The notes below the pieces were generated by a model, which ran no database searches, had not been told where the DNA came from, and saw nothing but the letters and a program-made list of their open reading frames with translations. A stretch of DNA of 64,000 nt from an uncultured Clostridia bacterium (lineage in GTDB: Bacteria; Bacillota; Clostridia; TANB77; CAG-508): assembly GCA_944386175.1 (NCBI GenBank), contig CALXAB010000001.1:47645-111644 (forward strand), in the 5' to 3' direction. Positions within the stretch are counted from its first letter, which is position 1. Every line of letters starts with the position of its first letter. Of the stretch, positions 23,141 to 57,833 are shown in pieces. The position numbers and the translations under genes were made by a program.

Positions 23141-23203
23141 CCATATGTATTTTAAACTAAAAACTCACACTTGTCAAGTTTGTGTGAGTTTTTAGTTTAA
23201 TTT

Positions 23204-23755: not shown

Positions 23756-23768
23756 TTACTTTTCCTCC

Positions 23769-36168: not shown

Positions 36169-36354
36169 TTAAATACCTATGTGGATTAAATTATATTCTT
36201 TTAAAATATTTTGTTTTAGTTCTAAATATCTTTTCTCTTTAATTAATCCTGCATTATATGTTTTATTTAGAATTGCTATTTTAATGCTACAATTAAAAAT
36301 ATTTTCATTTAGTTTTACATTTTTCGTATTATCAAATTTTACTTCGTACAACAT
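36169..36354 (-). CDS. Small conserved protein of 61 aa encoded immediately upstream of the serine recombinases
   Basis: A strong RBS agaggagga precedes it. It is paralogous to 50617-50802 and, more distantly, to 42882-43058. Confidence 0.5.
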   Translation of the reverse strand: MLYEVKFDNTKNVKLNENIFNCSIKIAILNKTYNAGLIKEKRYLELKQNILKEYNLIHIGI

Positions 36355-36379
36355 AAAAATCCTCCTCTGCTTGAATTAA

Positions 36380-36890
36380 ATTTCAAAAAAGAGCGACAAA
36401 AAAGCCAGCCGGCTAGCTAGACTGACTTCTTTGTCTTACATTTTTTGATAATACAATTATATTATGCTGTTCTATAAAGTTCAATTCCCGTTTTTTTCCC
36501 TTTTTTCTATTTTAATTGATAAAGCGTTGACTTTTTAGTTAGTACACTAAGTAAACTTGTGTAAAAATTTTTTTAATTATTTTTTACTTTATTATTTTTG
36601 AGTTCACTTAGTGTACTTTTTGTTTTGTATTTAAAAACCTTAGTTCACTTAGTGAATAAAAAACTAACTTTCAAGTACACTTGGTGAACTTTTTCTTAAA
36701 AATCACTTATTTTTCGTTCATTTAGTGAACTTTTGCACTCTCAAAGGCATTTTTTAGCTGTTCATTCGGTGAATTTCCGCATCAAATTTGCTTAAAATTT
36801 TTGTTCTTTTGTTAACTCTTGAAGGCTTGTCCTTCAATGTGTATAGGCGATGTGTGCACACTCGCTTTCCTGCCTTTAGTATTGTTTTTT
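36380..36890. repeat. Array of parS-like 15-bp palindromes (GTTCAC-N3-GTGAAC and variants, 6 sites) plus a conserved hairpin
   Basis: Sites TAGTACACTAAGTAAAC, GTTCACTTAGTGTAC, GTTCACTTAGTGAAT, GTACACTTGGTGAAC, GTTCATTTAGTGAAC and GTTCATTCGGTGAAT. The region is about 95% identical to 50940-51350. Confidence 0.8.
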
Positions 36891-40586: not shown

Positions 40587-40821
40587 AAATTTACCCTGCA
40601 AATGTATGAGGCAAAAAATAAGTATCAGTACATATCTACCGACACTTAAATTTATAAAGATTCTCTATTACTTATTTCATAAATTCTTTCTAGCAATTGA
40701 AATAACTGATAATTTTACATATCTACAATTAAACACAACCTATATATGTCATGCTTATCATAGACACAATCTCAAATTCCCTAGTATTTCAAACACTTCT
40801 ATCAATTTTCTAAAATTTAAT

Positions 40822-41004
40822 TTATGTGTTTCCACTTACCACATCTGCAACTACTTTAACTTTCACATCTGAATTTTGATGTTTTTCTCTTCCATATCTT
40901 CCTTTTTTCTCGAAAGTTATAATCTCTGAAAACATATCAAATTCAAGTATTACCTGTCCTGTTTTAGTTGTAGCACTGCCACACATTCCACATGTGTTGG
41001 TCAT
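40822..41004 (-). CDS. Questionable small ORF (60 aa, MTNTCGMCGSATTK...) inside the conserved transporter leader
   Basis: A paralogous sequence at about 58370-58560 is conserved in translation, but that copy has no start codon. It could be a leader or regulatory RNA rather than a protein. Confidence 0.2.
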   Translation of the reverse strand: MTNTCGMCGSATTKTGQVILEFDMFSEIITFEKKGRYGREKHQNSDVKVKVVADVVSGNT

Positions 41005-42679
41005 CTCTGGTTGCAGTAAGTTTTAAATGTTGTTTATCTCCTGTTGCAGTAAAATTGTCTTTACAATTTATTTCTGTTCCGTTTTTACAAATAAACCTTA
41101 TTGTATATGGATTTATTGTACCATTTTCTAATGTTTCCCCAATTATTACTTTCTCTATTATACATTCAAAAATATCTTTATCAAAATTTTTCATTATTTC
41201 CATATCTTTAAATAAACCTTTAAACTTGTTTAATCTATGTTTAATACTTTCATTTCTGTTTGTGTCTTTTAGTAGGTTTTGTATTTTCTGTTCTACTTTT
41301 AATAGTTCTATGTTTAGCTCATCATATTTTAAAGTATATTGTTCTTTATTTATTCTGCCTTCTAAGTTTAGTTCTAATAGATTATTAAGTTTCTTGTTTA
41401 TTTTCTCTTTGTCTTTTTCTAGCTTATTTACTACTGTTTCTGTAGTATTTTCTTTTAAGACATTTTCTATTTTTTCTAAAAAATCTTCTACTACTTTTTT
41501 ATTGTTGTTACAGAGTATTCTATATCCTTGTACAAAACAATCTTCTAGTATTTCTTCTGGTATTGCTTTACAGTATGGGCATTCTTCTTTTCCATGTTTT
41601 GCTCTTTTGATACATTGCCATACTGCTTTTTCATATTTTCTTTTTGAGTTCCAGTTTCTTCTTGTAAGTAAGCTACCACAAAATCCACAATATAATTTAC
41701 TACTAAAAGCATATTTCTTACTATAGTTATTATTTCTTCTTCCTGTTTCTCTTGTTCCTACTCGTTTTATTCTTATTTCTTGTACTCTATCAAATAACTC
41801 TTTACTAATAATTGGCTCATGATGTTCTTTTATATAATGCTTTTCTGCTTCTCCTAAATTGCTTAATCTTTTATGTGATATTGGATCTATTGTAAATGTT
41901 TTTCCCATTAGCACATCTCCAATATATTTTTCATTTTTTAGTATTCCTCTTATTGTTGATTCGTTCCAATTATCATTACCTTTTGGGGATTTAATGCCTT
42001 TTGCTTTTAGTTCTTTTGCTATTGTACTTGAACCTATTCCGTCTACATATCTTTCAAATATATATTTTATAACTTCTGCTTGTTCCTCATTTATAGTTAT
42101 CTGTTTTGTTATTAAATCATAGTTATAACCGTAACAACCATTATAGCCAATTAACTCTCCCCTGTCTTTCTTCATTTTTAGTCCAAGCAATACATGTGAA
42201 GATATGTTCTCACTTTCTTGTTGTGCCATAGCACTTAATACTGTTAGTAGCATTTCTCCTGTTCCTGATAGAGTATTTAGATTTTCTTCTTCAAATAAAA
42301 CTGCAATGTTCTTTTCTTTTAGCATTCTTACATATTTTAAAGTATCTAATGTGTTTCTAGCAAATCTTGATATGGATTTTGTTAAAATCATATCAAATTT
42401 TCCAGACATTCCATCTGTTATCATTTTCATAAAGTCTGTTCTTTTAAAATCTAATGTGCCACTTATAGATTCATCTGCATATATTCCTGCAAATTGCCAT
42501 TCAGATTTGCTATTGATTTTTTCATCATAATACTTTAATTGTGATTGGTAACTATTTAATTGTTCTTTATTTCCTGTACTAACTCTACAATATGCACATA
42601 CTCTTAATCTTTCTTTGATTGTTGTACCTGTTACTCTGTTAATTCTTCCGTTTGTTTTCTCTATGACTTGAATTTCCAT
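40964..42679 (-). CDS. Large serine recombinase (resolvase domain plus recombinase and zinc-ribbon domains), 571 aa
   Basis: Catalytic RVCAYCRVSTG...YQSQ motif near the N-terminus, a C4 zinc ribbon (CGFCGS...C..C) and a coiled-coil C-terminal region. It is 60-70% identical to the recombinase at 48681-50573. Confidence 0.85.
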   Translation of the reverse strand: MEIQVIEKTNGRINRVTGTTIKERLRVCAYCRVSTGNKEQLNSYQSQLKYYDEKINSKSEWQFAGIYADESISGTLDFKRTDFMKMITDGMSGKFDMILTKSISRFARNTLDTLKYVRMLKEKNIAVLFEEENLNTLSGTGEMLLTVLSAMAQQESENISSHVLLGLKMKKDRGELIGYNGCYGYNYDLITKQITINEEQAEVIKYIFERYVDGIGSSTIAKELKAKGIKSPKGNDNWNESTIRGILKNEKYIGDVLMGKTFTIDPISHKRLSNLGEAEKHYIKEHHEPIISKELFDRVQEIRIKRVGTRETGRRNNNYSKKYAFSSKLYCGFCGSLLTRRNWNSKRKYEKAVWQCIKRAKHGKEECPYCKAIPEEILEDCFVQGYRILCNNNKKVVEDFLEKIENVLKENTTETVVNKLEKDKEKINKKLNNLLELNLEGRINKEQYTLKYDELNIELLKVEQKIQNLLKDTNRNESIKHRLNKFKGLFKDMEIMKNFDKDIFECIIEKVIIGETLENGTINPYTIRFICKNGTEINCKDNFTATGDKQHLKLTATRDDQHMWNVWQCYN

Positions 42680-42699
42680 CTTTCCTCCGTTCCGCCTAG

Positions 42700-42770
42700 A
42701 GATAAAACTTAATAATTTTATTTTATAGAAAAGTGCATTTTAATGCATCTTTTCTATAAAACAAGGTTAA
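42700..42770. promoter_or_regulatory. Perfect 13-bp inverted repeat (TTTTATAGAAAAG / CTTTTCTATAAAA) plus two more hairpins in the leader between the small ORF and the recombinase start
   Basis: Seen directly in the sequence. It is absent from the paralogous module at 50574-50617. Confidence 0.35.
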
Positions 42771-42881
42771 TTTACCTATATTTGCCCGAGCTTTAGCTCG
42801 TGGCATTTGAGCCTAGAAATCTTTGATTTCGTTAAGGCTCAATTATCTTATATCATTTTTTAGATAAAAAGTAAATTGTTC

Positions 42882-43058
42882 TTACAAAAGTTTATAATCT
42901 TTTAAGATTTTTCTTTTTATTTCAATATATTCTGAATCTAGTATTAAGTTTTCTCTAAACAAATTATTTAAAAACAATAATTCCATGCTACAGTCTAGCA
43001 TATTATTATCTTTTAGTTGTTTAGAGTTATCTACTTCTATTTTATAATTATGTAGCAT
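42882..43058 (-). CDS. Small conserved protein of 58 aa upstream of a serine recombinase
   Basis: Start taken at MLHNYKIEVDN. It is colinear with the 61-aa paralogues (ML.E.K.DN.K...N.F.C...Y.E.K..IL.EY.L). Confidence 0.45.
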   Translation of the reverse strand: MLHNYKIEVDNSKQLKDNNMLDCSMELLFLNNLFRENLILDSEYIEIKRKILKDYKLL

Positions 43059-43199
43059 GAAATTGCTCCTTTTCTTTAAATTTGAAAAGAAAAAGAACAA
43101 AGAAACTAGAATCTTTCTAATCCCTTTGCTCTTTCTCTTTCATACTACCATTATATTATCGTGTTTTTATATAGTCAATTCCATTTTTATTCCCTCTTT

Positions 43200-43625
43200 T
43201 CTATTTTTGATATAATTCTAGTATCTAATTTTATAAGTACACTAAGTAAACTAAAAATTGTATAATTTTAAATTGCAGTTCACTTGGTGTACTAGAAAAA
43301 TATAACAAAAGTTCACTAAGTGTATTTGTAAATTTTGTTTTATTTTCACATTCACTTAGTGAACTAAATTCAAAAATATTATTCAATATCAAGTACACTT
43401 GGTGAACTTTTTCCCAAAATAAGTGAATTTTTTTAATTTTTTAATTCACCATTTTTAATTTTGAACGAAGAATAGCGGGTTTGAGCCAGTTCACCGAGTG
43501 AATTTTTACATCATATTTGCATAAAATTTTTGTTTTTTTATTAACTCTTGAAGGCTTGTCCTTCAATATGTATAGGCATTTTGTTAAGAATGCTATCCTG
43601 CCCTCATTTTCAATGAGGTATTTTG
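43200..43625. repeat. parS-like palindrome array (GTTCACTTGGTGTAC, GTTCACTAAGTGTAT, TTCACTTAGTGAAC, GTACACTTGGTGAAC, AGTTCACCGAGTGAAT)
   Basis: Same family as the 36380-36890 array. It ends with ...TTAACTCTTGAAGGCTTGTCCTTCAATATGTATAGGC. Confidence 0.75.
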
Positions 43626-43788
43626 CTCTTAAAATGTACTTATTCTACTTAATTAAATATACTTATCCTTAAATCCTCTTAATCGAAAAACAATGTGCTT
43701 TTAAAAATAAGTCAAGGTTGTGCGATAGCACATTTATTTAAACCTTGACTTGTTTTTATAAAGCACATTATACTTTTCTAAAAGGATT

Positions 43789-45240
43789 TTAACTATTTAT
43801 AAAAAATTGAATTATTGCAAATATTCCCATATCTGAAATTGTTTTTATTGCATCTACATTAGCAATAACTTTATAAGGGTGATGAATTACTAAATCTAAA
43901 TAGTTTTTCATTCCTTCATTATTAAAACATGTCTCCCATGCTCTTGAAATAGTATCGTCATCAATAAGATTTTGTTTATCTATTGATATTTTATTTATAA
44001 TCTTCTCTAATCTCAAGTCCAAATTATTATTTGCAGATTTCCATTTTTCCCATTTTCCTTTGTTTATTAAAAAATAGATGCTTGATTGTTCTAATAATGA
44101 GCGGATTAAAAAGCAATATGATATTGGGTAATTTTTATATAAATTTCCAAATGATAAATGCTGAATTTCATAGCATAGATTTTTAATCCCTTTAGCTCTA
44201 TCATTACTATATTTTAGTTTGCTACAATTAATATTTTTAAATAAAATACTATTGTCTTTTCTTGTTAATCTGATTTTATTAAATGCTATACTTTCATTTA
44301 TTTTATTTTTTACTATTTCACTTTCATTGGCATTATTATGTTTTTCTTCTCTACCATTAGAAAATATCTTCATTTGTTCATTTTTATTTTCTAAATTTTC
44401 ATTTATTTTATCTTTGCTGTCAAACCTTTCACTAACATTATTTTCTATATTGCCATACAAATATTTTTCTATATTAGCATTATTTTTTATTGTGTTACTT
44501 GTAATCCTACCACTTACAATATCTTGAACAATTCGTAATACTTTCTTGTCTAATTCATTTATTGAAGACAATGGCATTAAAACATTGTTATTAAAAGAAA
44601 TATTCAGATATTCTTTACCAACTTTTGAAGAAACAATCTTTTCAAACTTATTTACTGAAAAATTATTGTCAACTCCATCAAATGCTTTTTTACAAAATCC
44701 TTGTAATTGTGAAAATATATTTTTTACTCCCATTTTATCTTCAAATCTTTTTATTGAAGCTGTATCCCATTTTAAAGCTCCTGTATCAGTTGTATGTACA
44801 TTTCTTATATATCCAGCACAATCTTCAAATGAAGTGGCCACATAACAAGGAATTTGAAAATATTCTTCTCCTTGAATTCCTGCACTCATTGCATATATGC
44901 TTCTTATTTGTGTATATGAAAAGTATTTAAAAGATTCTACCAATTTAGGATTTTTTAAGATTTTCATTGCTGTTAATCTTCTATTACCATCCCATGCCAC
45001 AAATTTTTCTTTTTTCTCATCATAAGTGACTGTAACTATTGATTGTGGATACCAACCATTTGTGTAAATATCACTAATTAACTTATGCATTGCCTTCGCT
45101 TCTTTAGAATTTCTCACCAATTGTTGCATTATAAAAAGTTCATCCGCTATCATAATTTGTGTATGTCTTGGATTCTCTGGATTTACTAATATTTTTTCTA
45201 TGTCTATTAGTTGATGTTCTCTCATATATAATTCCCCCAT
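43789..45240 (-). CDS. ParB/Srx-superfamily (DUF262-like, DGNRR motif) protein with a long C-terminal extension
   Basis: LVNPENPR and VAWDGNRRLTAM are the ParB N-terminal-domain boxes. A possible His-Me/HNH-like DLVIHHP lies near the C-terminus. Confidence 0.55.
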   Translation of the reverse strand: MGELYMREHQLIDIEKILVNPENPRHTQIMIADELFIMQQLVRNSKEAKAMHKLISDIYTNGWYPQSIVTVTYDEKKEKFVAWDGNRRLTAMKILKNPKLVESFKYFSYTQIRSIYAMSAGIQGEEYFQIPCYVATSFEDCAGYIRNVHTTDTGALKWDTASIKRFEDKMGVKNIFSQLQGFCKKAFDGVDNNFSVNKFEKIVSSKVGKEYLNISFNNNVLMPLSSINELDKKVLRIVQDIVSGRITSNTIKNNANIEKYLYGNIENNVSERFDSKDKINENLENKNEQMKIFSNGREEKHNNANESEIVKNKINESIAFNKIRLTRKDNSILFKNINCSKLKYSNDRAKGIKNLCYEIQHLSFGNLYKNYPISYCFLIRSLLEQSSIYFLINKGKWEKWKSANNNLDLRLEKIINKISIDKQNLIDDDTISRAWETCFNNEGMKNYLDLVIHHPYKVIANVDAIKTISDMGIFAIIQFFINS

Positions 45241-45294
45241 TTTTTACCTTATAAAGTCTTTCGTAAATCCCTCATCATTCTTAAGTATATTATT

Positions 45295-46812
45295 CTATTT
45301 TTTTGCAATATATTTTTGATTTTTAGTATTTGGTTTATCTGGTATAGTCATTTGCAATTTTCCACTATCTAATAATGGTCTCATGTATTTTAAATAGAAA
45401 TTTCTTCTGTCTTTTAATCCTAAATATGCCATTATTTCTTTTGTTGTTTTTGGTTCTCTACAAAATTCTAATATTTTATCTTGATGGGTATCTTGGTGGA
45501 TATCTTGGTGGGTTGTTGGTCGGTCTTTTATCTCATTTTCAAATCTATCATGTATAAATATTGTTGTAATAAAATAATCTCTTGTTTCATTTGTTTCAAA
45601 CTCTGGTTCTTTTGAGCCATTATTTTTCAATGCTCTTTTTATTTTTGGAATACCTGTATTTCTACCTTCTGTTAATTTTAATTCTTTTAAAAACTCTCCA
45701 ATTCTACGATTTCTATATTTTCTTGCTATCATATTTTTATCTTCAATTGATTTTTCGCTTATTGAACGGTCTGGTCCTGGATAACTTACAATATGAATTC
45801 TATCTTCCATTATTCTTACTTCTACTGGTTCCCTTACATCATATCCTCTATGATAAACTGCATTTACTAATGCTTCTTCTATTGCTTGATATGGATAATT
45901 AAAAAATCTTACAGCCTCCGCTTGTCCATCTATCTTTAAAATTTTTTCCATAATAACAGTATTTTTAATATATGTTAAAGCACTTTTTATCATAGTATCA
46001 ATAGGTCCTTTAAATATTTGCTCTGTCATATCATCACCTTCTGGACCGTTTCTTAAATCTACTACTTCTATTTGTGAATATGGAAAGAATTTTTGTGGCT
46101 CATCATTAAAAAACATTAACCCTACATTTAAAGGTTTCATATATTCTGGTGTTCCATCTACTATTCTCATACTTTTACATAAATCTATAAAACTCATTGT
46201 TTCGGATTCTTTTAATAGTTCACTCTTTATCTCATATAAGTAATTTTGAATTAGTGGTAGTTTTAAATCTTGAATTTGTGCCTCATGATTCATTCTATCA
46301 TCGAATGGTATTACTCTTGCCATATCATATAATTCTTTTTGCTCTACTTCTGTAGCTTTTACTGTACTGGACATTTTTCTAATATAATATGAATATCCTT
46401 TTGAAAAATCTTTATCTAGTGTTGTTGGACATTTGTATGGTCTATTCTGACCACCAAAACACCATACTACTAGTATATTTTTACCTTTATATTGAGCAAC
46501 ATCTACAATTGGTGTATAGGCTGGCTGTATCATTTTACATTTTGTTAGCAATTCTTTTTGAATTTTATCTATTTCAGATAATTGTAGCCCTTCAAAATCT
46601 TTCTTAGGTCTACCATTTGCTTCTTCAACACCTATTAAAATATATCCTCCACCCCAGTTATCTATATCATTTGCAAAAGCACAAATTGTATGTAATATTG
46701 GTTCTGGATTCCAGTTTCTCTTTAATTCTAATCTTGCATTTTCTACAATGTTTTCATTTAGTATATTTTCTATACTTGTAGGTAATCTCATCTTCTCACC
46801 TTTCTTTTTCAA
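45295..46812 (-). CDS. COG2865-type Schlafen-like (AlbA_2) ATP-binding / HTH protein
   Basis: An N-terminal AlbA_2/Schlafen-like DNA-binding domain (LELKRNWNPEPILHTICAFANDIDNWGGGYILIGVEE), a central HATPase_c_4-like region and a C-terminal HTH. Confidence 0.55.
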   Translation of the reverse strand: MKKKGEKMRLPTSIENILNENIVENARLELKRNWNPEPILHTICAFANDIDNWGGGYILIGVEEANGRPKKDFEGLQLSEIDKIQKELLTKCKMIQPAYTPIVDVAQYKGKNILVVWCFGGQNRPYKCPTTLDKDFSKGYSYYIRKMSSTVKATEVEQKELYDMARVIPFDDRMNHEAQIQDLKLPLIQNYLYEIKSELLKESETMSFIDLCKSMRIVDGTPEYMKPLNVGLMFFNDEPQKFFPYSQIEVVDLRNGPEGDDMTEQIFKGPIDTMIKSALTYIKNTVIMEKILKIDGQAEAVRFFNYPYQAIEEALVNAVYHRGYDVREPVEVRIMEDRIHIVSYPGPDRSISEKSIEDKNMIARKYRNRRIGEFLKELKLTEGRNTGIPKIKRALKNNGSKEPEFETNETRDYFITTIFIHDRFENEIKDRPTTHQDIHQDTHQDKILEFCREPKTTKEIMAYLGLKDRRNFYLKYMRPLLDSGKLQMTIPDKPNTKNQKYIAKK

Positions 46813-46842
46813 ATGTCCGTTTTTTCGGACTTATAAAATTTT

Positions 46843-47259
46843 TTATTTCATATAATCTCTAATTTTAAATAATAACTCATCATCTAATATCTCTGTTGAG
46901 GCAAAATTATTTAAAGTATTATTATCTTCCCAATCTATATCAAATAAATTTATCACTTTATCATATCTTGGGAAAGCATGATAATGAACAAATGGATCAT
47001 GCATCATCATAATCATATAATTAAACTTTATTGCTCCAAACCTGTCTCTACATAGTTCTTCATACCATTTTATTACTTTTGGAAATTCAGCACCTTCATC
47101 TTGTAACATTCCACTTACATTTTGTGTTTCTCTTTTCAATAAAATAACTACATCTCCTAATGTTGTTTGTTTTTGCCTAACACAAACAATCCAATACTTA
47201 AACTCTTTAATACAAAGTTCCTCTGGTCTAAATTTTTTCATAAATTCTAAATTGTCCAT
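46843..47259 (-). CDS. HIT-like small hydrolase (tentative)
   Basis: 138 aa with DPFVHYHAFP, which resembles the histidine-triad HxHxH motif. Confidence 0.3.
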   Translation of the reverse strand: MDNLEFMKKFRPEELCIKEFKYWIVCVRQKQTTLGDVVILLKRETQNVSGMLQDEGAEFPKVIKWYEELCRDRFGAIKFNYMIMMMHDPFVHYHAFPRYDKVINLFDIDWEDNNTLNNFASTEILDDELLFKIRDYMK

Positions 47260-47282
47260 TGATAAGACCTCCTCTTACATTT

Positions 47283-47920
47283 TTATTTTTTAAACATATC
47301 ATTTAAATTATGTGATATTAATTTTAAATTATCTATATTTTCCCCTTCAATAACATAAGGCGTACAATGTTGTATTTGCAATTCAAATACTCTTTCTCTT
47401 GGTTCAATCTTAAACATATTTAAAAATAAGCACCTTATTGCATGATAATGTGAGAATATTCCTATTGTTATATCATCATTAAAATCTAACGAATCAAGAA
47501 ATCTTTTACATCTTATACTAACATCAGTATAGTTTTCTCCTTTTGGTGCTTTTTGTACGAAATCTGTTCTAAATTTATTAAATTTTTCATCTGTAATATA
47601 TTCATTATATTCATTAGAAGCTAATAAATCCTTCTTTTCCTTCAAATATTCCTAAACATCTTTCTCTTAAATCTTTACTTAAATTTAGTTCATATCCTGG
47701 TTTAGCTAATTTTGCTGTTTGTATTGCTCTCATTAAATCTGAAGAATAAACTTTTTTAATACTTTTAATAATATCATTTTTTGCTAAAATACTTGCTTGA
47801 TTCTTTCCTTATTCTGTTAAACTCGTCAATTCATTATCTAAAGTTCCTGTGTATAAAGCTGTTCCTTCATCATTTATCACGTTTGCCATTGTTTGTCCAT
47901 GTCTAATTATAACTATTCTC
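47283..47920 (-). pseudogene. Histidine phosphatase (phosphoglycerate-mutase-like) gene broken by frameshifts
   Basis: The N-terminus MRIVIIRHGQTMANV (RHG catalytic motif) at 47920 runs into a stop after about 37 codons. Downstream pieces in other frames end with the 120-aa ORF. Confidence 0.55.
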
Positions 47921-47921
47921 A

Positions 47922-48506
47922 TTAATTGTTACCTTCCTTTTTATTCTTTATTGTTTCAATATATTCTTTAACATATGCGTTCATATCTCTATCAAATAGT
48001 TCTTTTGAATATTCTAATCTTAATAGTTCTTCTCTTAAGATTGGCAAATATACTTCTATAATTTCATCTAACGCCTCTGGTTCTTCTTCAATACATCTTT
48101 TCCATCTATTTTTTCCGATATAAGCAATTTTGTCTGCATCTCTTACAATTTTTCCTTCAACTGTTGGAGGAATACATTTTCTCTTATGATTTACTACTGC
48201 TGAATAACATTGTTCTATTATTTCATTACTATAACTTAACTTTTCCATTTCTTCTTTTAGAATTCTTCCGCTTTCTTCTTCATGTCCTTTATCTGTAACA
48301 GACCTTCCAACATCATGCCAATATGCAGCTATAATACATATTTCTTTATTAGCTGGTATCTCTTCTAATAATTCTTTTACATAGTTTACGACATCAATAG
48401 TATGACCTATAAAATGTAGAGGATCATTTTCACATACTTTCATTTTTTCTATAGCTATATCAATTAATTTTTTATTTTTATTATATATTTCTTCGTAAAT
48501 ATCCAT
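47922..48506 (-). CDS. HD-domain phosphohydrolase
   Basis: H...HD signature (IGHTIDVV...AAYWHDVGR). 194 aa. Confidence 0.65.
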   Translation of the reverse strand: MDIYEEIYNKNKKLIDIAIEKMKVCENDPLHFIGHTIDVVNYVKELLEEIPANKEICIIAAYWHDVGRSVTDKGHEEESGRILKEEMEKLSYSNEIIEQCYSAVVNHKRKCIPPTVEGKIVRDADKIAYIGKNRWKRCIEEEPEALDEIIEVYLPILREELLRLEYSKELFDRDMNAYVKEYIETIKNKKEGNN

Positions 48507-48680
48507 TCTATCTAAATTCTCCCTATCTCTATTCTTTTATATTTTGACCATATTTTACCATAAAACAATAAAAAAATAAAGCATATAACAAATTAAATTA
48601 TTACATACTTTACCTTTCAAGTTTTATCTCCAAACATTTTTATTTTTCGTTGACAAATCGTTGACATTATCAACAAGAAA

Positions 48681-50573
48681 TTATACTACTCCGCACACCA
48701 TGTCAACTTCTATCGTTACTTTAATTTTATGATTTTCTGTTCTTTTAACCTTATTTTTGCCTTTTCTATCAAAACTAATAAAATCTTCAAAAGCAGTAAA
48801 TTGGGCTATTGTATCGAATCTTTCAGACATAGCACCGAGCAACACTCCACATGGCTCACACCCAGTCTGTAGATAGTTTTGGCTTACCTCGTATGATGAC
48901 TGTTGCAAACTACCTTGATTTTTATCTTTTTGACATTTGATTTCGTTTCCAGATTTTAGGATAAATGTTATTACTCTTGGATTTACATCTCCATTTTGTT
49001 CTTTTTCTCCTATTATAACTTTTTCTATCATTAATTCAAAAACATCTTTATCAAATGTTGGCATTATTTCATCATCTTTAAATAGACTTTTAAACTTGTT
49101 TAATCCTTGATTTAAACTAATTGAATCTTCTAACTCTAGTTGTAAATGTTCTTGCTCTTTTTCTATTTTGTTTATCTTGTTTTGTAATTTTGCCTTTTTA
49201 TCTTTTAATGTTTCAAGTGTTATTGTTCCATTCAAGTTTAAATCAATTAACTTGTCTATCTTTTCTTTTAAAGTTTGTTTTTCTTCTTCTAATTTTTTAA
49301 TAGAACTTTCATTACTTTCTTCTTGTATGATTTCTTCCATTTGTTTTAAGAATGTTTTGATTAGTTTTTTGTTATTATTACATAAAAGTTTATAACTTTC
49401 TGTAAATGCTTCTTCTATAATGTTTTCTTTCATTGCTTTACAATATGGGCAATTTTCTTTTCCATGTTTTACAAATTCCATACAATGCCATACCGTAATA
49501 CTATTTTTTGTTCCAGAGTGCCAGTTTCTTCTTGTTAATAAACTTCCACAAAAACCACAATATATTCTACTACTAAAAGGATATTTTCTGCTAAAGTTTC
49601 CTTTTCTTCTTCCAGAGCCTCGTACTCCTCCTCGCTTTTGTAATATTTCTTGTGCTTGATTAAACATTCTTTCTGAAATAATTGGTTCATGATGTTCTTG
49701 TATGTAATACTGATTTTCTTCTCCCATATTGACTACTCTTCTATGTGAGATTGGATCTGTTGTATATGTTTTTCCTTGTAAGACATCTCCTTTGTATTTT
49801 TCGTTTTTCAAAATACCTCTTATAGTTGAGTCATGCCATTGTTTCTTTCCTGTTGGTGTTTTATATTTCATAGCAGTTAGTTCTTTTGCAATTGTTGTGC
49901 AACCTACTCCTTGACAGTATCTTTCAAAGATATATCTTACTATTTCTGCTTCTTGATAATTTACTGATATTTTCTTTGTTTCTTTATCATATACATATCC
50001 TAAACATCCATTATATCCAATTAATTCTCCTCTTTTTTGTTTCATCTGTAATCCTAGTTTTACATGAGAAGATATATTTTCGCTCTCCTGCTGTGCCATT
50101 GCACTCATTACTGTTAGCATTACTTCGCCAGATAATTCTAAAGTATTGATGTTTTCTTCTTCAAAATAAATAGTGATTCCTTTTTCCTTTAATAATCTTA
50201 CATACTTTAAAGTATCTACTGTATTTCTTCCAAATCTTGATATTGATTTTGTAATTATCATGTCAAATTTGTTTTCTGTTGCATCTTGCATCATTCTCAT
50301 AAAGTTATCTCTTTTATAGTCAAGTGTTCCTGTTATCCCTTCATCTGCATAAATCCCTACATAAGTCCAATCACTTCTTGATTTTATTTTTTCTTCATAA
50401 TATTTTAGCTGAGAATTATAACTATTTATTTGTTCTTCTTTTTCTGTACTAACTCTTGCATAGGCACATACTCTTAAATTGCCTTTTATAACTTCTCCTG
50501 TTGTTCTATTAATTCTTCCTTTTTTCTTCTCTATTACTTGTACTTTCAAAATTAACCTCTCTTTCTCAAGCAT
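48681..50573 (-). CDS. Large serine recombinase, 630 aa
   Basis: Catalytic RVCAYARVSTEKEEQ...YNSQ motif, a zinc-ribbon CGFCGS...CPYC and a coiled-coil. It is paralogous to 40964-42679. Confidence 0.85.
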   Translation of the reverse strand: MLEKERLILKVQVIEKKKGRINRTTGEVIKGNLRVCAYARVSTEKEEQINSYNSQLKYYEEKIKSRSDWTYVGIYADEGITGTLDYKRDNFMRMMQDATENKFDMIITKSISRFGRNTVDTLKYVRLLKEKGITIYFEEENINTLELSGEVMLTVMSAMAQQESENISSHVKLGLQMKQKRGELIGYNGCLGYVYDKETKKISVNYQEAEIVRYIFERYCQGVGCTTIAKELTAMKYKTPTGKKQWHDSTIRGILKNEKYKGDVLQGKTYTTDPISHRRVVNMGEENQYYIQEHHEPIISERMFNQAQEILQKRGGVRGSGRRKGNFSRKYPFSSRIYCGFCGSLLTRRNWHSGTKNSITVWHCMEFVKHGKENCPYCKAMKENIIEEAFTESYKLLCNNNKKLIKTFLKQMEEIIQEESNESSIKKLEEEKQTLKEKIDKLIDLNLNGTITLETLKDKKAKLQNKINKIEKEQEHLQLELEDSISLNQGLNKFKSLFKDDEIMPTFDKDVFELMIEKVIIGEKEQNGDVNPRVITFILKSGNEIKCQKDKNQGSLQQSSYEVSQNYLQTGCEPCGVLLGAMSERFDTIAQFTAFEDFISFDRKGKNKVKRTENHKIKVTIEVDMVCGVV

Positions 50574-50616: not shown

Positions 50617-50802
50617 TTAAATACCTATATGAGTTAAATCATATTCTTTTAAAATATTTTGTTTTAGTTCTAAATATCTTTCCTCTTTAATTAGTCCTGC
50701 ATTATATGTTTTATTTAGAATTGCTATTTTAATGCTACAATTAAAAATATTTTCATTTAGTTTTACATTTTTCGTATTATCAAATTTTACTTCGTACAAC
50801 AT
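50617..50802 (-). CDS. Small conserved protein of 61 aa upstream of a serine recombinase
   Basis: About 95% identical to 36169-36354. Start at MLYEVKFDN. The upstream extension in the ORF track is not supported. Confidence 0.5.
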   Translation of the reverse strand: MLYEVKFDNTKNVKLNENIFNCSIKIAILNKTYNAGLIKEERYLELKQNILKEYDLTHIGI

Positions 50803-50939
50803 AAAAATTCTCCCTTGCTTAAATAAAATTTCAAAAAAGAGCAATAGAAAAAGCCAGTCGGCTAGCTTCGACTGACTTCTTTGTCTGACATTTTTTGATA
50901 ATACGATTATATTATGATGTTCTATAAAGTTCAATTCCC

Positions 50940-51350
50940 GTTTTTTTCCCTTTTTTCTATTTTAATTGATAAAGTGTTGATTTTTTAGTTAGTACACTAA
51001 GTGAACTTGTGTAAAAATTTTTTTAATTATTTTTTACTTTATTATTTTTGAGTTCACTCGGTGTACTTAGTTTTTTATTATATCAATTTTTAGTACACTT
51101 AGTGAACTAATTATAAATTATTTCATAAAATTTAGTACACTTGGTGAACTTTTTCTTAAAAATTACTTATCTTTCGTTCATTTAGTGAACTTTCACACTC
51201 TAAAAGAGATTTTTTAGTCATTCATTCGGTGAATTTTTGCATCAAATTTGCTTAAAATTTTTGTTCTTTTATTAACTCTTGAAAGCTTGACCTTCAATGT
51301 GTATATGCGTTGCGTGATGCACGCTATCCTGCCTTTAGTGTTCACTTTAT
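50940..51350. repeat. parS-like palindrome array (the full copy, contiguous with the intact recombinase module)
   Basis: About 95% identical to 36380-36890 over roughly 0.9 kb when the small ORF and the recombinase 5' end are included. Confidence 0.8.
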
Positions 51351-51355
51351 ATCCT

Positions 51356-53209
51356 TTAATTAGTATTAGATTCTGATGTAGTTTTATTTACAACACCCAA
51401 GTTCTTAATACTATCTTGTAAACTTTCATCTGGAATAAAGTTTCTACAATTTTCTAATTTATAAAATTCCCCTAATTTATCTATATCTTTATATAAGAAA
51501 TAAAAATAGTTTTTTAATGCATTTTCTGTTGTTTCTAATCTAGGTCTTAATGAGTATGCTCTTTTCTTCTTATAGAAATAGTTTTCATTAAATAATTTAT
51601 ATAAATTATTTAGTTCATCACTATCTAATGTTATTTTGTGAAATCTCGTTTCTTTGAAAATATAATTTATTTTATCAATGTCTATATTTAAATCATCAAC
51701 ATATTCTCTAATGTTATTCTTGCTTATTATAGTTATTATAGATAATGTAATACTCATAATTATATAATCCATAAATTCTTTTGATAAATTCATTGTCCTA
51801 AATATTTTTATTGATCTAATATCATTGTTTTCAATCATTTTTAAAAACATTATAATGATTGGTTCACCCTTTATAAGATATGGTATAAATATTTCTTCTT
51901 CATGTATATTTTTTCTTTGCAGAAAATCATTAATACTTCTATCTGGAAATTTTTCCCTATGTTCCATTAATCTAATATTATCGTATAATTCTTCTAGTAC
52001 TCTGTACTTTTCATTTTTAGTTAAATTCTTATTTTCAATAACACATGTATATACAGATTCTAAATATCTATTACTAGTAAACATATATATAGAATCATAT
52101 TTATATAATCTACAATAGCTAAAATCTATAACATTTTCATATAGAAAAATTAAATACATATCTAATTTAATAATTCTCCATACAAGATTTATATATTCTT
52201 TTTCTTGACTTTCAGTTTGAATATATTTTATTTTATCTATTAAATTTGCAATATTTTGCATTTTATAATCATCATGAACAGGCACAAATTCATAATAAGC
52301 AAACATTGTATAAAGTTTACAATATATATTTGCAGCCTCTATATGTTTATTATATAAAATCAAATGCGAAACTATTTCATGTATAGCACTAATCAAATCA
52401 CTTCTAAAAATCATTTCTGTATAATATTCTTGAAGAATTTTTTTGTTATTAAATAAAGTTAAATCTATAAGATTCATTATGTTGTGAATATTATAATTAT
52501 AATCATTATCATTTTTTTGTATTAATACTAATGTTTGATTCTTTAAGTCTGTGATATCTTTGCACCCATGGCTATTTAGAGGAATCGCCTTTTTTATATG
52601 CTTCTTTTGTTTCTCTAAATACATACATAGTAAACTGTTTCCAAACCAATTTTTATGAGTGTAAAACCAAATCATTTTAATACACATATAAAATATAACT
52701 ACAAGAGAAAGCAAAAAATTTATTAATATTAGTATTTGACTACTGCCTTTTAGGCATTGTATAATATTTACAAATAATAGGAGAACTAAAATTATAAAAA
52801 TTTTTAGCAATGATAAAAAACTATTGTTAGGGAAAATAACATTAATATGTTTTTTTCCCAATATATAACTTTCAGACAACCCAGATAATAAAGATATTAC
52901 TGAAATTATTATCAATGTATTACTAATTTGAGCTACTAATATATCATTTGAATCAATGTTAAATTCTTTATTCAAGTCTAATATATTTTCAATTTTGTAA
53001 TCATTAATAGCATAAAAAATTACAAACATACTAAATATAACTATACTAAACATAAAAATAATCATTAAAAAATTCATAATTTTTTGTTTAACTACAAAAT
53101 ATTTTTTATTATCATATATTTTATACCATTTTAAAAATTCTTTTATTTTATAATTTTTATTTAAAATAAATCTTCTTATTTTTTTTAATTTACCATTAGA
53201 ATCTTCCAT
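51356..53209 (-). CDS. Hypothetical polytopic membrane protein of 617 aa with a large cytoplasmic C-terminal domain
   Basis: About five predicted TM helices in the first 200 aa. No recognisable domain. Adjacent to an AbiE pair. Confidence 0.4.
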   Translation of the reverse strand: MEDSNGKLKKIRRFILNKNYKIKEFLKWYKIYDNKKYFVVKQKIMNFLMIIFMFSIVIFSMFVIFYAINDYKIENILDLNKEFNIDSNDILVAQISNTLIIISVISLLSGLSESYILGKKHINVIFPNNSFLSLLKIFIILVLLLFVNIIQCLKGSSQILILINFLLSLVVIFYMCIKMIWFYTHKNWFGNSLLCMYLEKQKKHIKKAIPLNSHGCKDITDLKNQTLVLIQKNDNDYNYNIHNIMNLIDLTLFNNKKILQEYYTEMIFRSDLISAIHEIVSHLILYNKHIEAANIYCKLYTMFAYYEFVPVHDDYKMQNIANLIDKIKYIQTESQEKEYINLVWRIIKLDMYLIFLYENVIDFSYCRLYKYDSIYMFTSNRYLESVYTCVIENKNLTKNEKYRVLEELYDNIRLMEHREKFPDRSINDFLQRKNIHEEEIFIPYLIKGEPIIIMFLKMIENNDIRSIKIFRTMNLSKEFMDYIIMSITLSIITIISKNNIREYVDDLNIDIDKINYIFKETRFHKITLDSDELNNLYKLFNENYFYKKKRAYSLRPRLETTENALKNYFYFLYKDIDKLGEFYKLENCRNFIPDESLQDSIKNLGVVNKTTSESNTN

Positions 53210-53265: not shown

Positions 53266-54111
53266 TTATTTTTTTAATTCATTCTTTATTTCTTCTAATA
53301 CTCCCATCGTATCTTCATAATTAATATCTTCTGCATAACTAAATTTAGATTGATAATTCTTCCAATGCTCTTTCAGAACATCACTTTCTTTTATAACTTC
53401 CATTATCTCATTTATATTATTTAATTTATCCATTGAACCTCTATATTCAAATTTCTTCAATATAGCTTGTCCTAATAATTCTTTATTAAAATTTTGTTGT
53501 TGAGTAGTCCATAATATATAAATATCATAAAAATCTCTCGCTCTTGTAGTATCTATATTTCTTGATATAATTGTTTCAAATTTATCAGCTATTACTGTTT
53601 CCATATTATATGCTAATATTTCTATTGAACGATTTTCAAACATTAAATCGAACTTATAATTTACTTCTTTTGGAACAATTACATCTCCTGTTGTTATATC
53701 TAATTTCATTGGTACAACTAACTTATCAAATTTAGCATCTAAAGCTACTCTGTATCCTCCATATTCATCTTCTTGTCTTATTTCTTTTATACTTCTAAAT
53801 TCAAATGCTACTCCATCATCTAAATCTATATTAAAAATTTCATTTAAGATATTTTCAAGATTATCCTTTTCTAAATCAAATCCTTTTATCGTTGCATCCA
53901 TATCAAGAGTATTTCTCATGTCTATTCCAACTATTGCTGTTATTAACATTCCTCCTTTTAATACAAATTTATATTTGTATTTTGATACCGAAATTCTTTC
54001 CAATAGTCTTTCTAGCATATAGTTTTGTAAAATAATGTTTTCATTCACATCTACTTTATCTGACATATTCTTTATCCATGCTTTTAATTGTGCTCTATTT
54101 TTTGCTATCAC
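53266..54111 (-). CDS. AbiEii/DUF1814 nucleotidyltransferase toxin (type IV TA), intact
   Basis: 281 aa. The GG...D.D region (KGGMLITAIVGIDMRNTLDMD). Overlaps the upstream AbiEi gene by 4 nt. Confidence 0.8.
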   Translation of the reverse strand: MIAKNRAQLKAWIKNMSDKVDVNENIILQNYMLERLLERISVSKYKYKFVLKGGMLITAIVGIDMRNTLDMDATIKGFDLEKDNLENILNEIFNIDLDDGVAFEFRSIKEIRQEDEYGGYRVALDAKFDKLVVPMKLDITTGDVIVPKEVNYKFDLMFENRSIEILAYNMETVIADKFETIISRNIDTTRARDFYDIYILWTTQQQNFNKELLGQAILKKFEYRGSMDKLNNINEIMEVIKESDVLKEHWKNYQSKFSYAEDINYEDTMGVLEEIKNELKK

Positions 54112-54701
54112 AATAACACCTCCAAGTATTTTCTTACTTCATCTTCAATATTAAATAATTTTGCATATTTGTGTAGTTTAATAGAGTTTCTATCTTTTCT
54201 TTCAGCATATCTTTTCATCGCATCTGTAAATAAGGCAATTTCTATTTTTTTCTTATTTCTGATAATGTCACATATTGTTCTCTCTAAATCATAAACTTTA
54301 ACTTTGTTTCCATATGGTGTATTCATTTCTATTATTCCTAATTCATATAATTCATCTTTTAAATAGAAAAATTGATAGTTTCTATCTTTTAGTAATTTAG
54401 TATTATAGTAACTAGGTATAGTCAATTGATATTTTATGGGAGTTCTATCACATAAATCATGAAAATACAAAGCTGTCTCATGAGAGAATATCCCTTTTTT
54501 ACAAATTGCTTGTGTGATAAAATAATTATCTTCAAATGTATCTGCTCCAATATATACTCCTCTTGCTACTCTATCTATCAATCCCTTTTCTATCATCCTT
54601 GTTAAAATCTTATTATTTATCCCAATATCTTCTACTTGATATGTTTCAATCACTCCATTATTATTTTTTAATAATTTTTCTACTTTTTCTATATCATCCA
54701 T
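54108..54701 (-). CDS. AbiEi family antitoxin
   Basis: 197 aa with an N-terminal wHTH (RVARGVYI). Overlaps AbiEii. Confidence 0.75.
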   Translation of the reverse strand: MDDIEKVEKLLKNNNGVIETYQVEDIGINNKILTRMIEKGLIDRVARGVYIGADTFEDNYFITQAICKKGIFSHETALYFHDLCDRTPIKYQLTIPSYYNTKLLKDRNYQFFYLKDELYELGIIEMNTPYGNKVKVYDLERTICDIIRNKKKIEIALFTDAMKRYAERKDRNSIKLHKYAKLFNIEDEVRKYLEVLL

Positions 54702-55296: not shown

Positions 55297-55325
55297 TTTC
55301 TTCTCCTTATTTAAATAATAAAAAA

Positions 55326-55949
55326 CTATTTTTCAATTTCATTATCATATATACTTTTATATTCTTCAAACTTAGCCTTTGCTCTTGGTAGTCCTGCATC
55401 CACTGCCATCTTTAAATAATATTCTGATAATCTTAAATTTTTCTCTGTTCCAACTCCATTATAATAAAAATTTGCTCCTAAATCATAAATTGCTGGAAGA
55501 TGTCCTTGTATTGCACAGTCATGTATTAATTCAAATGCTTTCTTTTCATCTCTTTCAATATTTCCAAATCCAAAATAGTAATAAGCTCCTAAACAAAATT
55601 TTGAAAATGCTTGTCTTCTCGGTGTTTCTTGTTCTTCATTTATAAGACTTAATAGTGATTCATAAGCCTCAATATGTATCTGTTTTGCTTTTTCTTTATC
55701 TTGTTCCACTCCATCTCCAAAATGATAGCAAGCACCAACTCCATATGCACAACGAGGATCTCCTAAGTCTTTTCCTTTTTCATACCAGTACATTGCTTTT
55801 TCAAAACTTTGCTCTGCTCCATTTTCTTGACTATCATAACTTCTTCCTAGAATATAGCACGCAAGTCTATCTCCATTTTTAGCTTTCATTTCTAAATCTT
55901 CTATGTTAAATATCATTGGCTTTATTATATTATTCACTTTTAGCTTCAC
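55326..55949 (-). CDS. Sel1-like / TPR repeat protein
   Basis: Repeated AxxGxxYxxGxGVxxDxxKA units. Confidence 0.6.
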   Translation of the reverse strand: MKLKVNNIIKPMIFNIEDLEMKAKNGDRLACYILGRSYDSQENGAEQSFEKAMYWYEKGKDLGDPRCAYGVGACYHFGDGVEQDKEKAKQIHIEAYESLLSLINEEQETPRRQAFSKFCLGAYYYFGFGNIERDEKKAFELIHDCAIQGHLPAIYDLGANFYYNGVGTEKNLRLSEYYLKMAVDAGLPRAKAKFEEYKSIYDNEIEK

Positions 55950-57494: not shown

Positions 57495-57500
57495 TAATAT

Positions 57501-57833
57501 TTATACCTCCATGTACCATTGTTTAAGAAATATACATTTATTGCTCTTATTTAATTTTATTTGATATATCATGTCATATAATATTGTATCTTTCAAAATA
57601 AAATTAACTATACAACATTCATCATTTTCACATAGTATATTGAACTCAATATCATTTGTGTTTTGCCCTTTTATTTCTTCCCATATTTCTCTAATTTTTT
57701 TCATGTTATTTATTTTTTCTATAGGCGACTCATAATACTCCACTTTTTCATCAAATAAGTTAATTATCTTGTCTATATCTTTCTGTTTCCAATTATTTAG
57801 TAATTCATCACACCATTTATAATAATCTCTCAT
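57501..57833 (-). CDS. Hypothetical protein of 110 aa
   Basis: ORF only. No recognisable domain. Confidence 0.35.

What the first reader, a model, noticed from the sequence alone, without database searches (positions are those of the whole stretch)
43789..48506. Candidate accessory (defence or nucleotide-metabolising) cargo cluster between two serine recombinases
Five co-directional genes sit between the two intact LSR modules: a ParB/DUF262-like protein, a COG2865 Schlafen-like ATP-binding HTH protein, a HIT-like protein, a frameshifted histidine phosphatase and an HD phosphohydrolase. Schlafen-like and DUF262 proteins are recurrent in defence islands. HIT, HD and histidine-phosphatase enzymes all act on nucleotides or phosphoesters. 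The combination is not a named system. One member is already decaying.
Basis: inference. Interest (0 to 1): 0.7.

Follow-up and report, generated by a model that had tools for sequence, protein, structure and literature searches.

The report
Mosaic cargo of a serine-recombinase island
The five genes are real, but they are a patchwork of three independently swapped modules (two stand-alone phage-defence-type genes and a decaying trio of small hydrolases) carried by a small mobile island, not one new defence system.

Summary
Five co-directional minus-strand genes lie between two intact large serine recombinases (LSRs): HD hydrolase, broken histidine phosphatase, HIT-fold protein, Schlafen-type protein and ParB-like protein.

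The reading as one unnamed system is not supported.
- The ParB-like protein is a ParB/HEPN protein of the named PD-lambda-5 family (component A). Its methyltransferase partner is absent here and in every relative of at least 40% identity.
- The Schlafen protein belongs to the commonest published class of bacterial Schlafens (nuclease + HisKinase-like ATPase + HTH), with an intact Ex4ExK motif.
- A sister island (L043-45) keeps HD, phosphatase and HIT at about 95% identity but carries a small cytidine deaminase exactly where the Schlafen and ParB/HEPN genes sit. Another (L016) keeps those two genes behind different upstream genes.
- Close homologues of each gene occur alone in unrelated contexts.
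- The phosphatase was inactivated independently in two lineages. The four intact genes are under purifying selection (dN/dS 0.07-0.35).

The stretch is the whole cargo of a 7.9-kb unit, bounded by att cores that match the 3' end of rumA/rlmD. Serine-integrase elements are known to target that gene.

Verdict: ordinary accessory and defence cargo on a known kind of element. Interest is low to moderate.

The parts
47922..48506 (-). E: HD-domain phosphohydrolase, 194 aa. It is the first gene of the unit and sits behind a conserved promoter-like region.
   Evidence: Pfam HD E=7e-13. PDB 2pq7 HD hydrolase E=1e-6. 95% aa identity to L043 and 80% to L009; dN/dS 0.14-0.15.
47283..47921 (-). D: histidine phosphatase (branch 1) pseudogene, with a CAA>TAA nonsense codon and a 5-bp deletion. 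The start is translationally coupled to HD (TAATG).
   Evidence: The L043 copy has a different nonsense codon (GAA>TAA seven codons earlier) and no deletion, so the inactivations are independent.
46843..47259 (-). C: HIT-fold protein, 138 aa, with the conserved motif VHYHAFPRY.
45295..46791 (-). B: prokaryotic Schlafen, 498 aa, composed of an Slfn/AlbA_2 nuclease, a GHKL/HisKinase-like ATPase and a C-terminal wHTH.
   Evidence: Pfam PF04326, PF13749 and PF21247. PADLOC match to the N-terminal part of a Schlafen-pAgo model, E=1e-22. The sequence reads VENARLELK, i.e. Ex4ExK. More than 7,900 homologues.
43789..45225 (-). A: ParB/HEPN protein of the PD-lambda-5_A family, 478 aa, without its methyltransferase partner.
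43690..43788 (-). Terminator-like hairpin just after A (AAGTCAAGGTT...AACCTTGACTT followed by a T-run). Homology with L043 resumes here, after the swapped segment.
   Evidence: Sequence read. Inverted self-match 43671-43789. Conserved in L043 after its deaminase gene.
48507..48856 (-). Left end of the unit: att core (CATGTGGAGTGT, reading HVEC in the rumA frame), the last 57 codons of the LSR2 ORF, and a promoter-like region for E.
   Evidence: Identity to L043 jumps from about 55% to over 93% at about 48850. HVEC motif at 48853. Core alignment with the rumA 3' end of L011.
40964..43602 (-). Right end of the unit: conserved leader (43138-43602), small SHOCT-like ORF (42882-43100), LSR1 (40964-42679), and the att core at about 40994.
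   Evidence: Identity to L043 falls from 93% to 50-70% exactly at the core.
48681..50573 (-). LSR2, the recombinase of the neighbouring upstream unit. Its body ends at the core that begins this unit.

Best explanation
The 4.7-kb stretch is the complete cargo of one roughly 7.9-kb recombination unit (about 48853 to 40994). The unit lies in a tandem array of large-serine-recombinase islands of the rumA/rlmD-targeting kind.

The cargo is a mosaic of three modules that move and are exchanged independently.

1. HD hydrolase, dead histidine phosphatase and HIT-fold protein. This is a leftover set of small nucleotide or phosphoester hydrolases, read from a conserved promoter-like region. Its middle gene is no longer needed.
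2. A stand-alone prokaryotic Schlafen protein. It most likely acts alone as an infection-activated tRNA nuclease. The ATPase and HTH parts would serve as sensor or regulator.
3. A stand-alone ParB/HEPN protein of the PD-lambda-5_A family, present without its usual Dam-like methyltransferase. It most likely acts alone as a nucleic-acid-targeting abortive-infection-type effector.

What is shown: gene content, domain and fold assignments, unit boundaries, module exchange between relatives, and purifying selection. What is inferred from family membership: the biochemical activities and any anti-phage role.
For: Boundaries:
- Three copies of a rumA-3'-end-like core, '(T)HVEC..VL.LK..*', lie at 58537, 48853 and 40994. 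They share their core DNA with the 3' end of an intact rumA/rlmD gene in L011.
- Identity between the window and L043 switches at both cores.
- This is the arrangement published for rumA-targeting single serine integrases, with the att site inside the integrase gene and exchange of the 3' ends (PMC4701971).

Modularity:
- L043-45 carry LSR - E (95%) - D - C (93%) - a 133-aa dCMP_cyt_deam_1 gene - leader - small ORF (87%) - LSR1 (95%). The difference from the window runs exactly from the C stop codon (46841) to the A stop codon (43789).
- L016 carries the same left-end sequence, then a radical-SAM fragment, a CYTH gene, B (88%), A (49%) and the leader. Between the window and L016, dS is 0.37 for B but 1.08 for A.
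- L009 has an NTPase_I-T gene upstream of A (88%) and HD (80%) downstream of A. Homology with the window starts right after the position of the B stop codon.
- L001-4 and L010 have a 112-codon remnant of B beside an intact A.
- B homologues of 80-94% identity lie in four other contexts without A.
- C homologues lie in about nine contexts, for example next to thyX and DUF5680. None of the 46 metagenomic loci has E or D beside C.

The methylase partner:
- PD-Lambda-5_B (D12 class methyltransferase; PADLOC E=5e-123, Pfam PF02086) lies directly downstream of all five distant A homologues (about 25-34% identity, L030-34).
- It lies beside none of the A homologues of at least 40% identity, and there is none in the window.

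Selection and decay:
- dN/dS is 0.07-0.35 for A, B, C and E.
- D carries different nonsense codons in the window and in L043.

Family knowledge:
- pSlfn HisKinase-HTH fusions make up 19% of 5,930 bacterial Schlafens, and pSlfn proteins cleave tRNA on phage sensing (PMC13056530).
- PD-lambda-5 gave broad protection in E. coli (PMC9519451).
Against: - B and A are adjacent in three related contexts, and relative to L043 they differ as one block.
- The consensus scan found no minus-strand terminator between E and A, and a hairpin only after A. All five genes could therefore be one transcript.
- The neighbourhood sample is small. It consists of short MAG contigs from related gut Clostridia, so absence of partners within 10 kb is not absence from the genome. 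A compatible methylase could lie elsewhere.
- The two HisKinase-type Schlafens tested in E. coli gave no protection against the phage panel (PMC13056530), so a defence role for this class is still unproven.
- How the tandem array arose is not resolved. The rumA body is not in the window, and LSR1 is out of frame with both tails.
Confidence: 0.68

Rival explanations
1. B and A form a two-gene defence module. The Schlafen nuclease and the ParB/HEPN protein would work together, as a split analogue of the DUF262-Schlafen fusion EcoSlfn7. One would be sensor or regulator and the other effector.
For: - B and A are adjacent with a 69-bp gap and no terminator between them.
- The adjacency recurs in L016, and as a B remnant plus A in L001-4 and L010.
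- B plus A replace the deaminase of L043 as one block.
- A fusion of the ParB-superfamily DUF262 domain to Schlafen defends E. coli against T7 and other phages (PMC13056530).
Against: - About 20 other A loci lack B.
- Four contexts of B homologues at 80-94% identity lack A.
- A stays intact and under purifying selection beside a truncated B.
- The 69 bp upstream of A travel with A into a B-less context in L009.
- B and A have very different divergence between the window and L016 (dS 0.37 against 1.08).
Confidence: 0.13
2. All five genes are one operon-encoded nucleotide-based defence system. The HD, HIT and phosphatase enzymes would make or degrade a nucleotide signal, or deplete nucleotide pools, for the Schlafen and ParB/HEPN effectors.
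For: - The genes are co-directional and tightly spaced, with one promoter-like region upstream and one terminator-like hairpin downstream.
- The neighbours swapped in by relatives are again small nucleotide enzymes: cytidine deaminase, CYTH and NTPase_I-T.
Against: - The set is not conserved in any other locus examined.
- The phosphatase is dead in both lineages that have the trio.
- C, D and E have no PADLOC match beyond a generic HD similarity to Cas3.
- C is a widespread, highly conserved gene, often in housekeeping-like contexts such as thyX and nrdD.
Confidence: 0.03
3. The orphan ParB/HEPN gene is an inactive relic of a PD-lambda-5 system that lost its methylase, and the region is simply a decaying island.
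For: - The methylase is missing.
- D is a pseudogene.
- Truncated LSR modules and solitary att tails elsewhere in the window show ongoing decay.
Against: - More than 100 full-length orphan homologues exist.
- The residues invariant across orphan and methylase-linked proteins are all kept: GNRR, H144, W153, R375-LLEQ380 and KDYxDxxxH448xP.
- dN/dS is 0.16-0.35.
Confidence: 0.08

Closest known systems
PD-lambda-5 (Vassallo et al. 2022, E. coli ECOR7; ParB/HEPN protein plus methyltransferase)
   Same: Gene A matches 20 PADLOC PD-Lambda-5_A models (best E=8e-43 over 417 of 466 positions). It has the same ParB-plus-HEPN two-domain build (supplement of PMC9519451).
   Different: The D12-class methyltransferase (component B) is missing here and in the whole clade of at least 40% identity. 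It is present next to the distant homologues L030-34. The putative HEPN motif reads Rx4Q, not the usual Rx4-6H.
Prokaryotic Schlafen proteins, HisKinase-HTH class (Perez Taboada et al. 2026, PMC13056530)
   Same: Slfn/AlbA_2 domain with Ex4ExK, fused to a HisKinase-like (GHKL) ATPase and an HTH. It lies within 10 kb of known defence genes (AbiEi/AbiEii at 53266-54701; PD-lambda-5_A next door).
   Different: No member of this particular class has a demonstrated phenotype; the proteins that worked were Ig-like and DUF262 fusions. The wHTH tail here is exchangeable: L016 and L036 have other C-termini.
rumA-targeting single serine integrase elements of streptococci and C. difficile CTn5 (Ambroset et al. 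2016, PMC4701971)
   Same: The att core lies inside the 3' part of the recombinase ORF and equals the conserved 3' end of rumA/rlmD. Different recombinase bodies are joined to different tails at that point.
   Different: These units are only 8-10 kb, with no conjugation or mobilisation genes seen. They are arranged in tandem. The rumA body is not in the window.
SCC-type tandem cassette arrays and defence islands on mobile elements
   Same: Several recombinase-bounded units sit side by side at one att type. They carry variable accessory, toxin-antitoxin and defence cargo, with remnants of older units.
   Different: The recombinase subfamily and the target differ. The cargo is exchanged at single-gene resolution between close relatives.

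Membership tests
PD-lambda-5 defence system | ParB/HEPN protein (component A) | tested here: met
PD-lambda-5 defence system | Adjacent DNA methyltransferase (component B, D12 class) | tested here: not met
   tblastn of five PD-Lambda-5_B proteins against the whole window gives nothing below E=0.26. None lies beside any A homologue of at least 40% identity. One is present beside L030-34.
PD-lambda-5 defence system | Protection against phage | not testable with these tools
   Needs expression and phage challenge.
Prokaryotic Schlafen (pSlfn), HisKinase-HTH class | Slfn/AlbA_2 nuclease domain | tested here: met
   PF04326 E=2.7e-14, residues 24-153 of the TTG-start ORF. PDB 2kyy E=1e-9.
Prokaryotic Schlafen (pSlfn), HisKinase-HTH class | Catalytic Ex4(E/D)xK motif | tested here: met
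   Read from the sequence: V-E-NARL-E-L-K at residues 16-24 of the ATG-start protein. The motif is as defined in PMC13056530.
Prokaryotic Schlafen (pSlfn), HisKinase-HTH class | Fusion to a HisKinase-like ATPase and an HTH | tested here: met
   PF13749 HATPase_c_4 E=3e-13 and PF21247 Fic-like_C wHTH E=2.9e-14.
Prokaryotic Schlafen (pSlfn), HisKinase-HTH class | Phage-triggered tRNA cleavage | not testable with these tools
   Biochemical and phage assays are needed.
HIT superfamily | HIT alpha+beta fold | tested here: met
HIT superfamily | Histidine triad H-x-H-x-H-x-x | tested here: inconclusive
   The sequence reads F-V-H-Y-H-A-F-P-R. Two invariant histidines, H92 and H94, are kept. Aligned from memory to Fhit HVHVHVLPR, the first histidine is Phe and the nucleophile position is kept. 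No Pfam HIT model matches.
Histidine phosphatase superfamily, branch 1 | Intact ORF carrying the RHG catalytic motif | tested here: not met
   The RHG motif is present (IIRHGQT), but the ORF is cut by a TAA codon and a 5-bp deletion.
rumA-targeting serine-integrase elements | att core shared by the integrase gene's 3' part and the rumA 3' end | tested here: met
   Description in PMC4701971.
rumA-targeting serine-integrase elements | One end of the element lies in the rumA gene itself | tested here: inconclusive
   No rumA body in the window. Intact rumA lies 1-2.5 kb upstream of A in L001-3, L010 and L011.
Single multi-gene defence system comprising all five genes | Conserved co-occurrence of the components in other genomes | tested here: not met

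The most novel reading that the evidence does not exclude
In gut Clostridia, the ParB/HEPN effector of PD-lambda-5 has become a methylase-independent, single-gene immune protein. It sometimes teams up with a Schlafen-ATPase-HTH protein as a split counterpart of the DUF262-Schlafen fusions. If so, the methyltransferase of the canonical system would not be a self-protecting modification enzyme, and ParB-like plus Schlafen would be a recurrent functional pairing.
Probability: 0.12. Interest if true: 0.6.

Novelty: new member of a known kind. Interest (0 to 1): 0.3.

Why it matters
As a system, it matters little. The cluster is an ordinary mix of accessory genes on a known type of integrative element.

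Three points have some value.
- A large clade of PD-lambda-5-type ParB/HEPN proteins lives without the methyltransferase yet stays under purifying selection. This constrains models of how that uncharacterised system works.
- The locus gives natural 'swap' variants of a very small LSR island: the same backbone with different single-gene cargo. These could serve as a compact model for cargo exchange and for rumA-directed LSR integration in uncultured gut Clostridia.
- It supplies a Gram-positive gut example of the most common, still phenotype-less, Schlafen-HisKinase-HTH class for testing.

Tried and rejected
- Exact-sequence look-ups of window proteins A and B found nothing. I used the ORF listing starts, which are probably too long, and the closest database cluster is only 96% identical.
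- NCBIfam gave nothing for A, B or C.
- Pfam gave nothing for A or C even at E up to 5.
- Viral-contig scans for A and E found no relatives.
- tblastn of A against plasmids and phages gave only distant N-terminal hits. One is in a Vibrio prophage, where the record itself labels the gene PD-Lambda-5_A.
- Rfam found no family in 35-59 kb at the gathering threshold, and only chance hairpin matches at the E-value threshold.
- I considered integron-like gene cassettes as the cause of the exact gene-boundary swaps. I rejected this because homology simply ends at stop codons and no repeated attC-like site lies at the junctions.
- I considered that the att site lies in the 5' part of the LSR gene, because of the fusion of LSR residues 1-49 to a purD-like gene at 35451-36125. 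This does not fit the identity breakpoints with L043, which lie at the 3' cores. The fusion remains unexplained.
- I considered that E-D-C-B-A are native chromosomal genes downstream of rumA rather than island cargo. The conserved block shared with L043 is bounded by att cores on both sides, and different recombinase bodies and tails are joined there. This favours cargo, but old islands that have decayed into 'chromosome' (L001, L011) blur the distinction.


Full report
**Setting.** The window has about 25% G+C, and almost all genes lie on the minus strand. It is chromosomal: hisS, a HisRS-like paralogue (hisZ-type), hisG and ABC transporters lie nearby. The closest relatives of every gene come from uncultured gut Clostridia MAGs.

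**The five genes (in order of transcription).**
- E (47922-48506) is an HD-domain hydrolase (Pfam E=7e-13).
- D (47283-47921) is a branch-1 histidine phosphatase. Its start overlaps the HD stop codon.
  - It is broken twice: a CAA>TAA nonsense codon and a 5-bp deletion.
- C (46843-47259) has no profile hit in Pfam, NCBIfam, PADLOC or PHROGs.
  - The motif VHYHAFPRY is invariant in H92 and H94.
- B (probable start 46791) combines SLFN_AlbA_2, HATPase_c_4 and a Fic-like_C winged helix.
  - It carries the Schlafen catalytic motif Ex4ExK (ENARLELK).
  - It matches the N-terminal Schlafen-ATPase part of a pAgo model in PADLOC.
- A (probable start 45225) has no Pfam hit. It matches 20 PADLOC PD-Lambda-5_A models (best E=8e-43).
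  - Its model has a ParB/sulfiredoxin-like N-terminal domain and a HEPN-fold C-terminal domain, joined by a disordered linker.
  - The paper that discovered PD-lambda-5 lists it as 'ParB/HEPN, methyltransferase' (supplement of PMC9519451).

**Is it one system? Gene A.**
- Among 27 distinct genome loci and several metagenomic contigs with A homologues, the only recurrent neighbours are LSRs (eight loci) and, rarely, B.
- The five most distant homologues (about 25-34% identity, L030-34) all have a 272-298-aa gene at their 3' end. In four it is co-directional; in L030 it is on the opposite strand.
  - This gene is PD-Lambda-5_B, a D12-class adenine methyltransferase (PADLOC E=5e-123, Pfam PF02086).
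- None of the homologues of at least 40% identity has this methylase within the contig, and the window has none.
- The orphan clade keeps every residue that is invariant across both groups. It evolves under purifying selection (dN/dS 0.16-0.35).

**Is it one system? Gene B.** B belongs to a huge family, with more than 7,900 hits at E below 1e-20. Its closest relatives (80-94% identity) lie in four unrelated contexts:
- next to an RNase H-like gene and a DUF6847 gene;
- between DUF4362 and LytR genes;
- between an aldo-keto reductase and a GNAT;
- beside RhuM and a DUF87 ATPase.

**Is it one system? Gene C.**
- C has 232 very conserved homologues.
- In about nine contexts and 46 metagenomic loci, none has E or D beside it. 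One frequent context is chromosomal: thyX, C, DUF5680, ComB-like, and further on nrdD.

**Natural swap variants.**
- L043-45 carry the same unit as the window. E is 95% identical, D 98% in its C-terminal part, C 93%, the small ORF 87% and LSR1 95%.
  - A 133-aa cytidine or dCMP deaminase-family gene sits exactly where B and A are.
  - Homology stops at the stop codon of C (46841) and resumes at the stop codon of A (43789).
- L016 has the same left-end sequence and the same downstream leader. Its cargo is a radical-SAM fragment, a CYTH protein, B (88%) and a 49%-identical A.
  - Synonymous divergence between the window and L016 is 0.37 for B but 1.08 for A, so even this pair has been re-assorted.
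- L009 has an NTPase_I-T gene upstream of A (88%) and the HD gene (80%) downstream of A. Homology to the window begins immediately after the position of B's stop codon.
- L001-4 and L010 have a 112-codon remnant of B beside an intact A.
- D carries a different nonsense codon in L043 (GAA>TAA, seven codons upstream of the window's) and lacks the deletion. It was therefore inactivated independently in two lineages.

Together these results say that the five genes are three modules (E-D-C, B, A) that happen to share a cargo slot.

**What carries them.**
- Each LSR is preceded by a conserved leader of about 450 bp and a small SHOCT-like ORF.
- Each LSR body ends at a short core, CA(C/T)GTGGA(G/A)TGT. 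In another frame this reads (T)HVEC(V/C)..VL.LK..stop.
- The same sequence is the true 3' end of an intact 23S rRNA U5-methyltransferase gene (rumA/rlmD) in L011.
- Identity between the window and L043 jumps from about 55% to over 93% at the core at about 48850, inside the LSR2 ORF. It drops from 93% to 50-70% at the core at about 40995.
- The conserved unit is therefore tail - E D C (cargo) - leader - small ORF - LSR1 body. In the two genomes it is joined to different recombinase bodies on the left and different tails on the right.
- This matches the published behaviour of single serine integrases that target rumA. The att site lies inside the integrase gene, and integration exchanges the 3' ends of rumA and the integrase (PMC4701971).
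- A third core at 58537 delimits a neighbouring unit. Its cargo is an APH-family kinase, two GNATs, a Sel1 protein, AbiEi/AbiEii and a 617-aa unknown protein.
- How the tandem array formed is not resolved, and the rumA body is not in the window.

**Mechanism.**
- For B, family knowledge (PMC13056530) points to a sensor-controlled tRNase that stops translation on infection. The intact Ex4ExK motif and strong purifying selection (dN/dS 0.07-0.20) fit an active enzyme.
  - HisKinase-type members tested in E. coli showed no phenotype, so this remains inference.
- For A, the ParB-like domain (GNRR) and the HEPN-fold domain suggest a nucleotide-dependent nucleic-acid-targeting effector. Its conserved residues are Rx4Q plus a conserved His on another helix.
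  - The canonical system was read as a compact 'RM+Abi' (PMC9519451).
  - Because the orphan clade lacks the methylase but is conserved, A presumably acts, or is kept in check, without linked modification. This too is inference.
- E and C are intact and conserved, but D between them is dead. I read the trio as small-molecule or nucleotide hydrolases carried along as accessory genes, not as part of the defence genes' mechanism.
- No terminator was predicted between E and A, and a hairpin follows A. Co-transcription is therefore possible and is the main point in favour of functional linkage.

**Verdict.** This is accessory and defence cargo between LSRs, but not a new five-gene system. It is a new member of a known kind: a small rumA-type LSR island with mosaic cargo. 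The cargo includes an incomplete PD-lambda-5 and a common-class bacterial Schlafen. The residual novel possibility has low probability. It is a methylase-independent ParB/HEPN effector, perhaps cooperating with Schlafen.

Noticed in passing
window 58537, 48853, 40994 (minus strand); L011:1466-1644: Three copies of a rumA/rlmD 3'-end-like att core lie in the window, each at the end of an LSR body or, at 58537, of a deleted one. They divide the region into tandem units of 9.7 and 7.9 kb. The roughly 300 bp at 58244-58544 and 40701-41002 are 89% identical.
   Followed up: yes
window 43138-43602, 50894-51333, 36444-36874, 20107-20307; L043:9038-9600; L016:11610-11724: A conserved leader lies upstream of the small ORF and LSR. 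It has a near-invariant core of about 100 nt (GGCAGGAnAGC...TATACAnATTGAAGGnCAAGCnTTCAAGAGTTAA). It contains one hairpin with compensatory changes between copies (GCATT/AATGC, GCGTG/CACGC, GCGAGTGTG/CACACATCGC). Three to five GTTCACnnAGTGnAC palindromes follow. There is no Rfam match. It could be an unrecognised regulatory RNA or a protein-binding region. Only six sequences of three types were compared.
   Followed up: partly
window 35451-36125 (minus): This ORF consists of the first 48 residues of an LSR (96% identical to LSR2, including the catalytic serine) fused to the C-terminal roughly 175 residues of a divergent purD-like (GARS) protein. It is preceded by a complete leader and small ORF. 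The 5' half of the purD-like gene is not in the window. The origin of the fusion, whether deletion or recombination, is not explained.
   Followed up: partly
window 53266-54701; also 21768-22589 and 12734-13549: A complete AbiEi/AbiEii pair (PADLOC AbiEii E=3e-96) lies in the neighbouring LSR unit. Two more AbiEii-like genes lie elsewhere in the window.
   Followed up: partly
window 51356-53209 (minus): A 617-aa protein between AbiEii and the LSR2 leader has N-terminal hydrophobic segments. It has no match in Pfam, NCBIfam, PADLOC or PHROGs.
   Followed up: no
L025:8250-11793: A related MAG carries a truncated copy of gene A. It is wedged between segments 81-88% identical to window 55324-56456, 23189-23773 and 56501-57524. 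Cargo genes of different window units are thus re-shuffled at gene resolution in relatives.
   Followed up: partly
window 42882-43100 and 50617-50934 (minus): Each intact LSR is preceded by a small ORF with a weak SHOCT_2-like C-terminus (E=0.012). A third copy lies at 36172-36414.
   Followed up: no
window 48681-48856 against 40822-41004: LSR2 reads in frame through the att core into a 57-residue tail. LSR1 is out of frame with the homologous tail and stops 10 codons after the core, and the L043 homologue is also short. Two length classes of recombinase therefore exist, as described for integrated and excised rumA-type integrases.
   Followed up: partly
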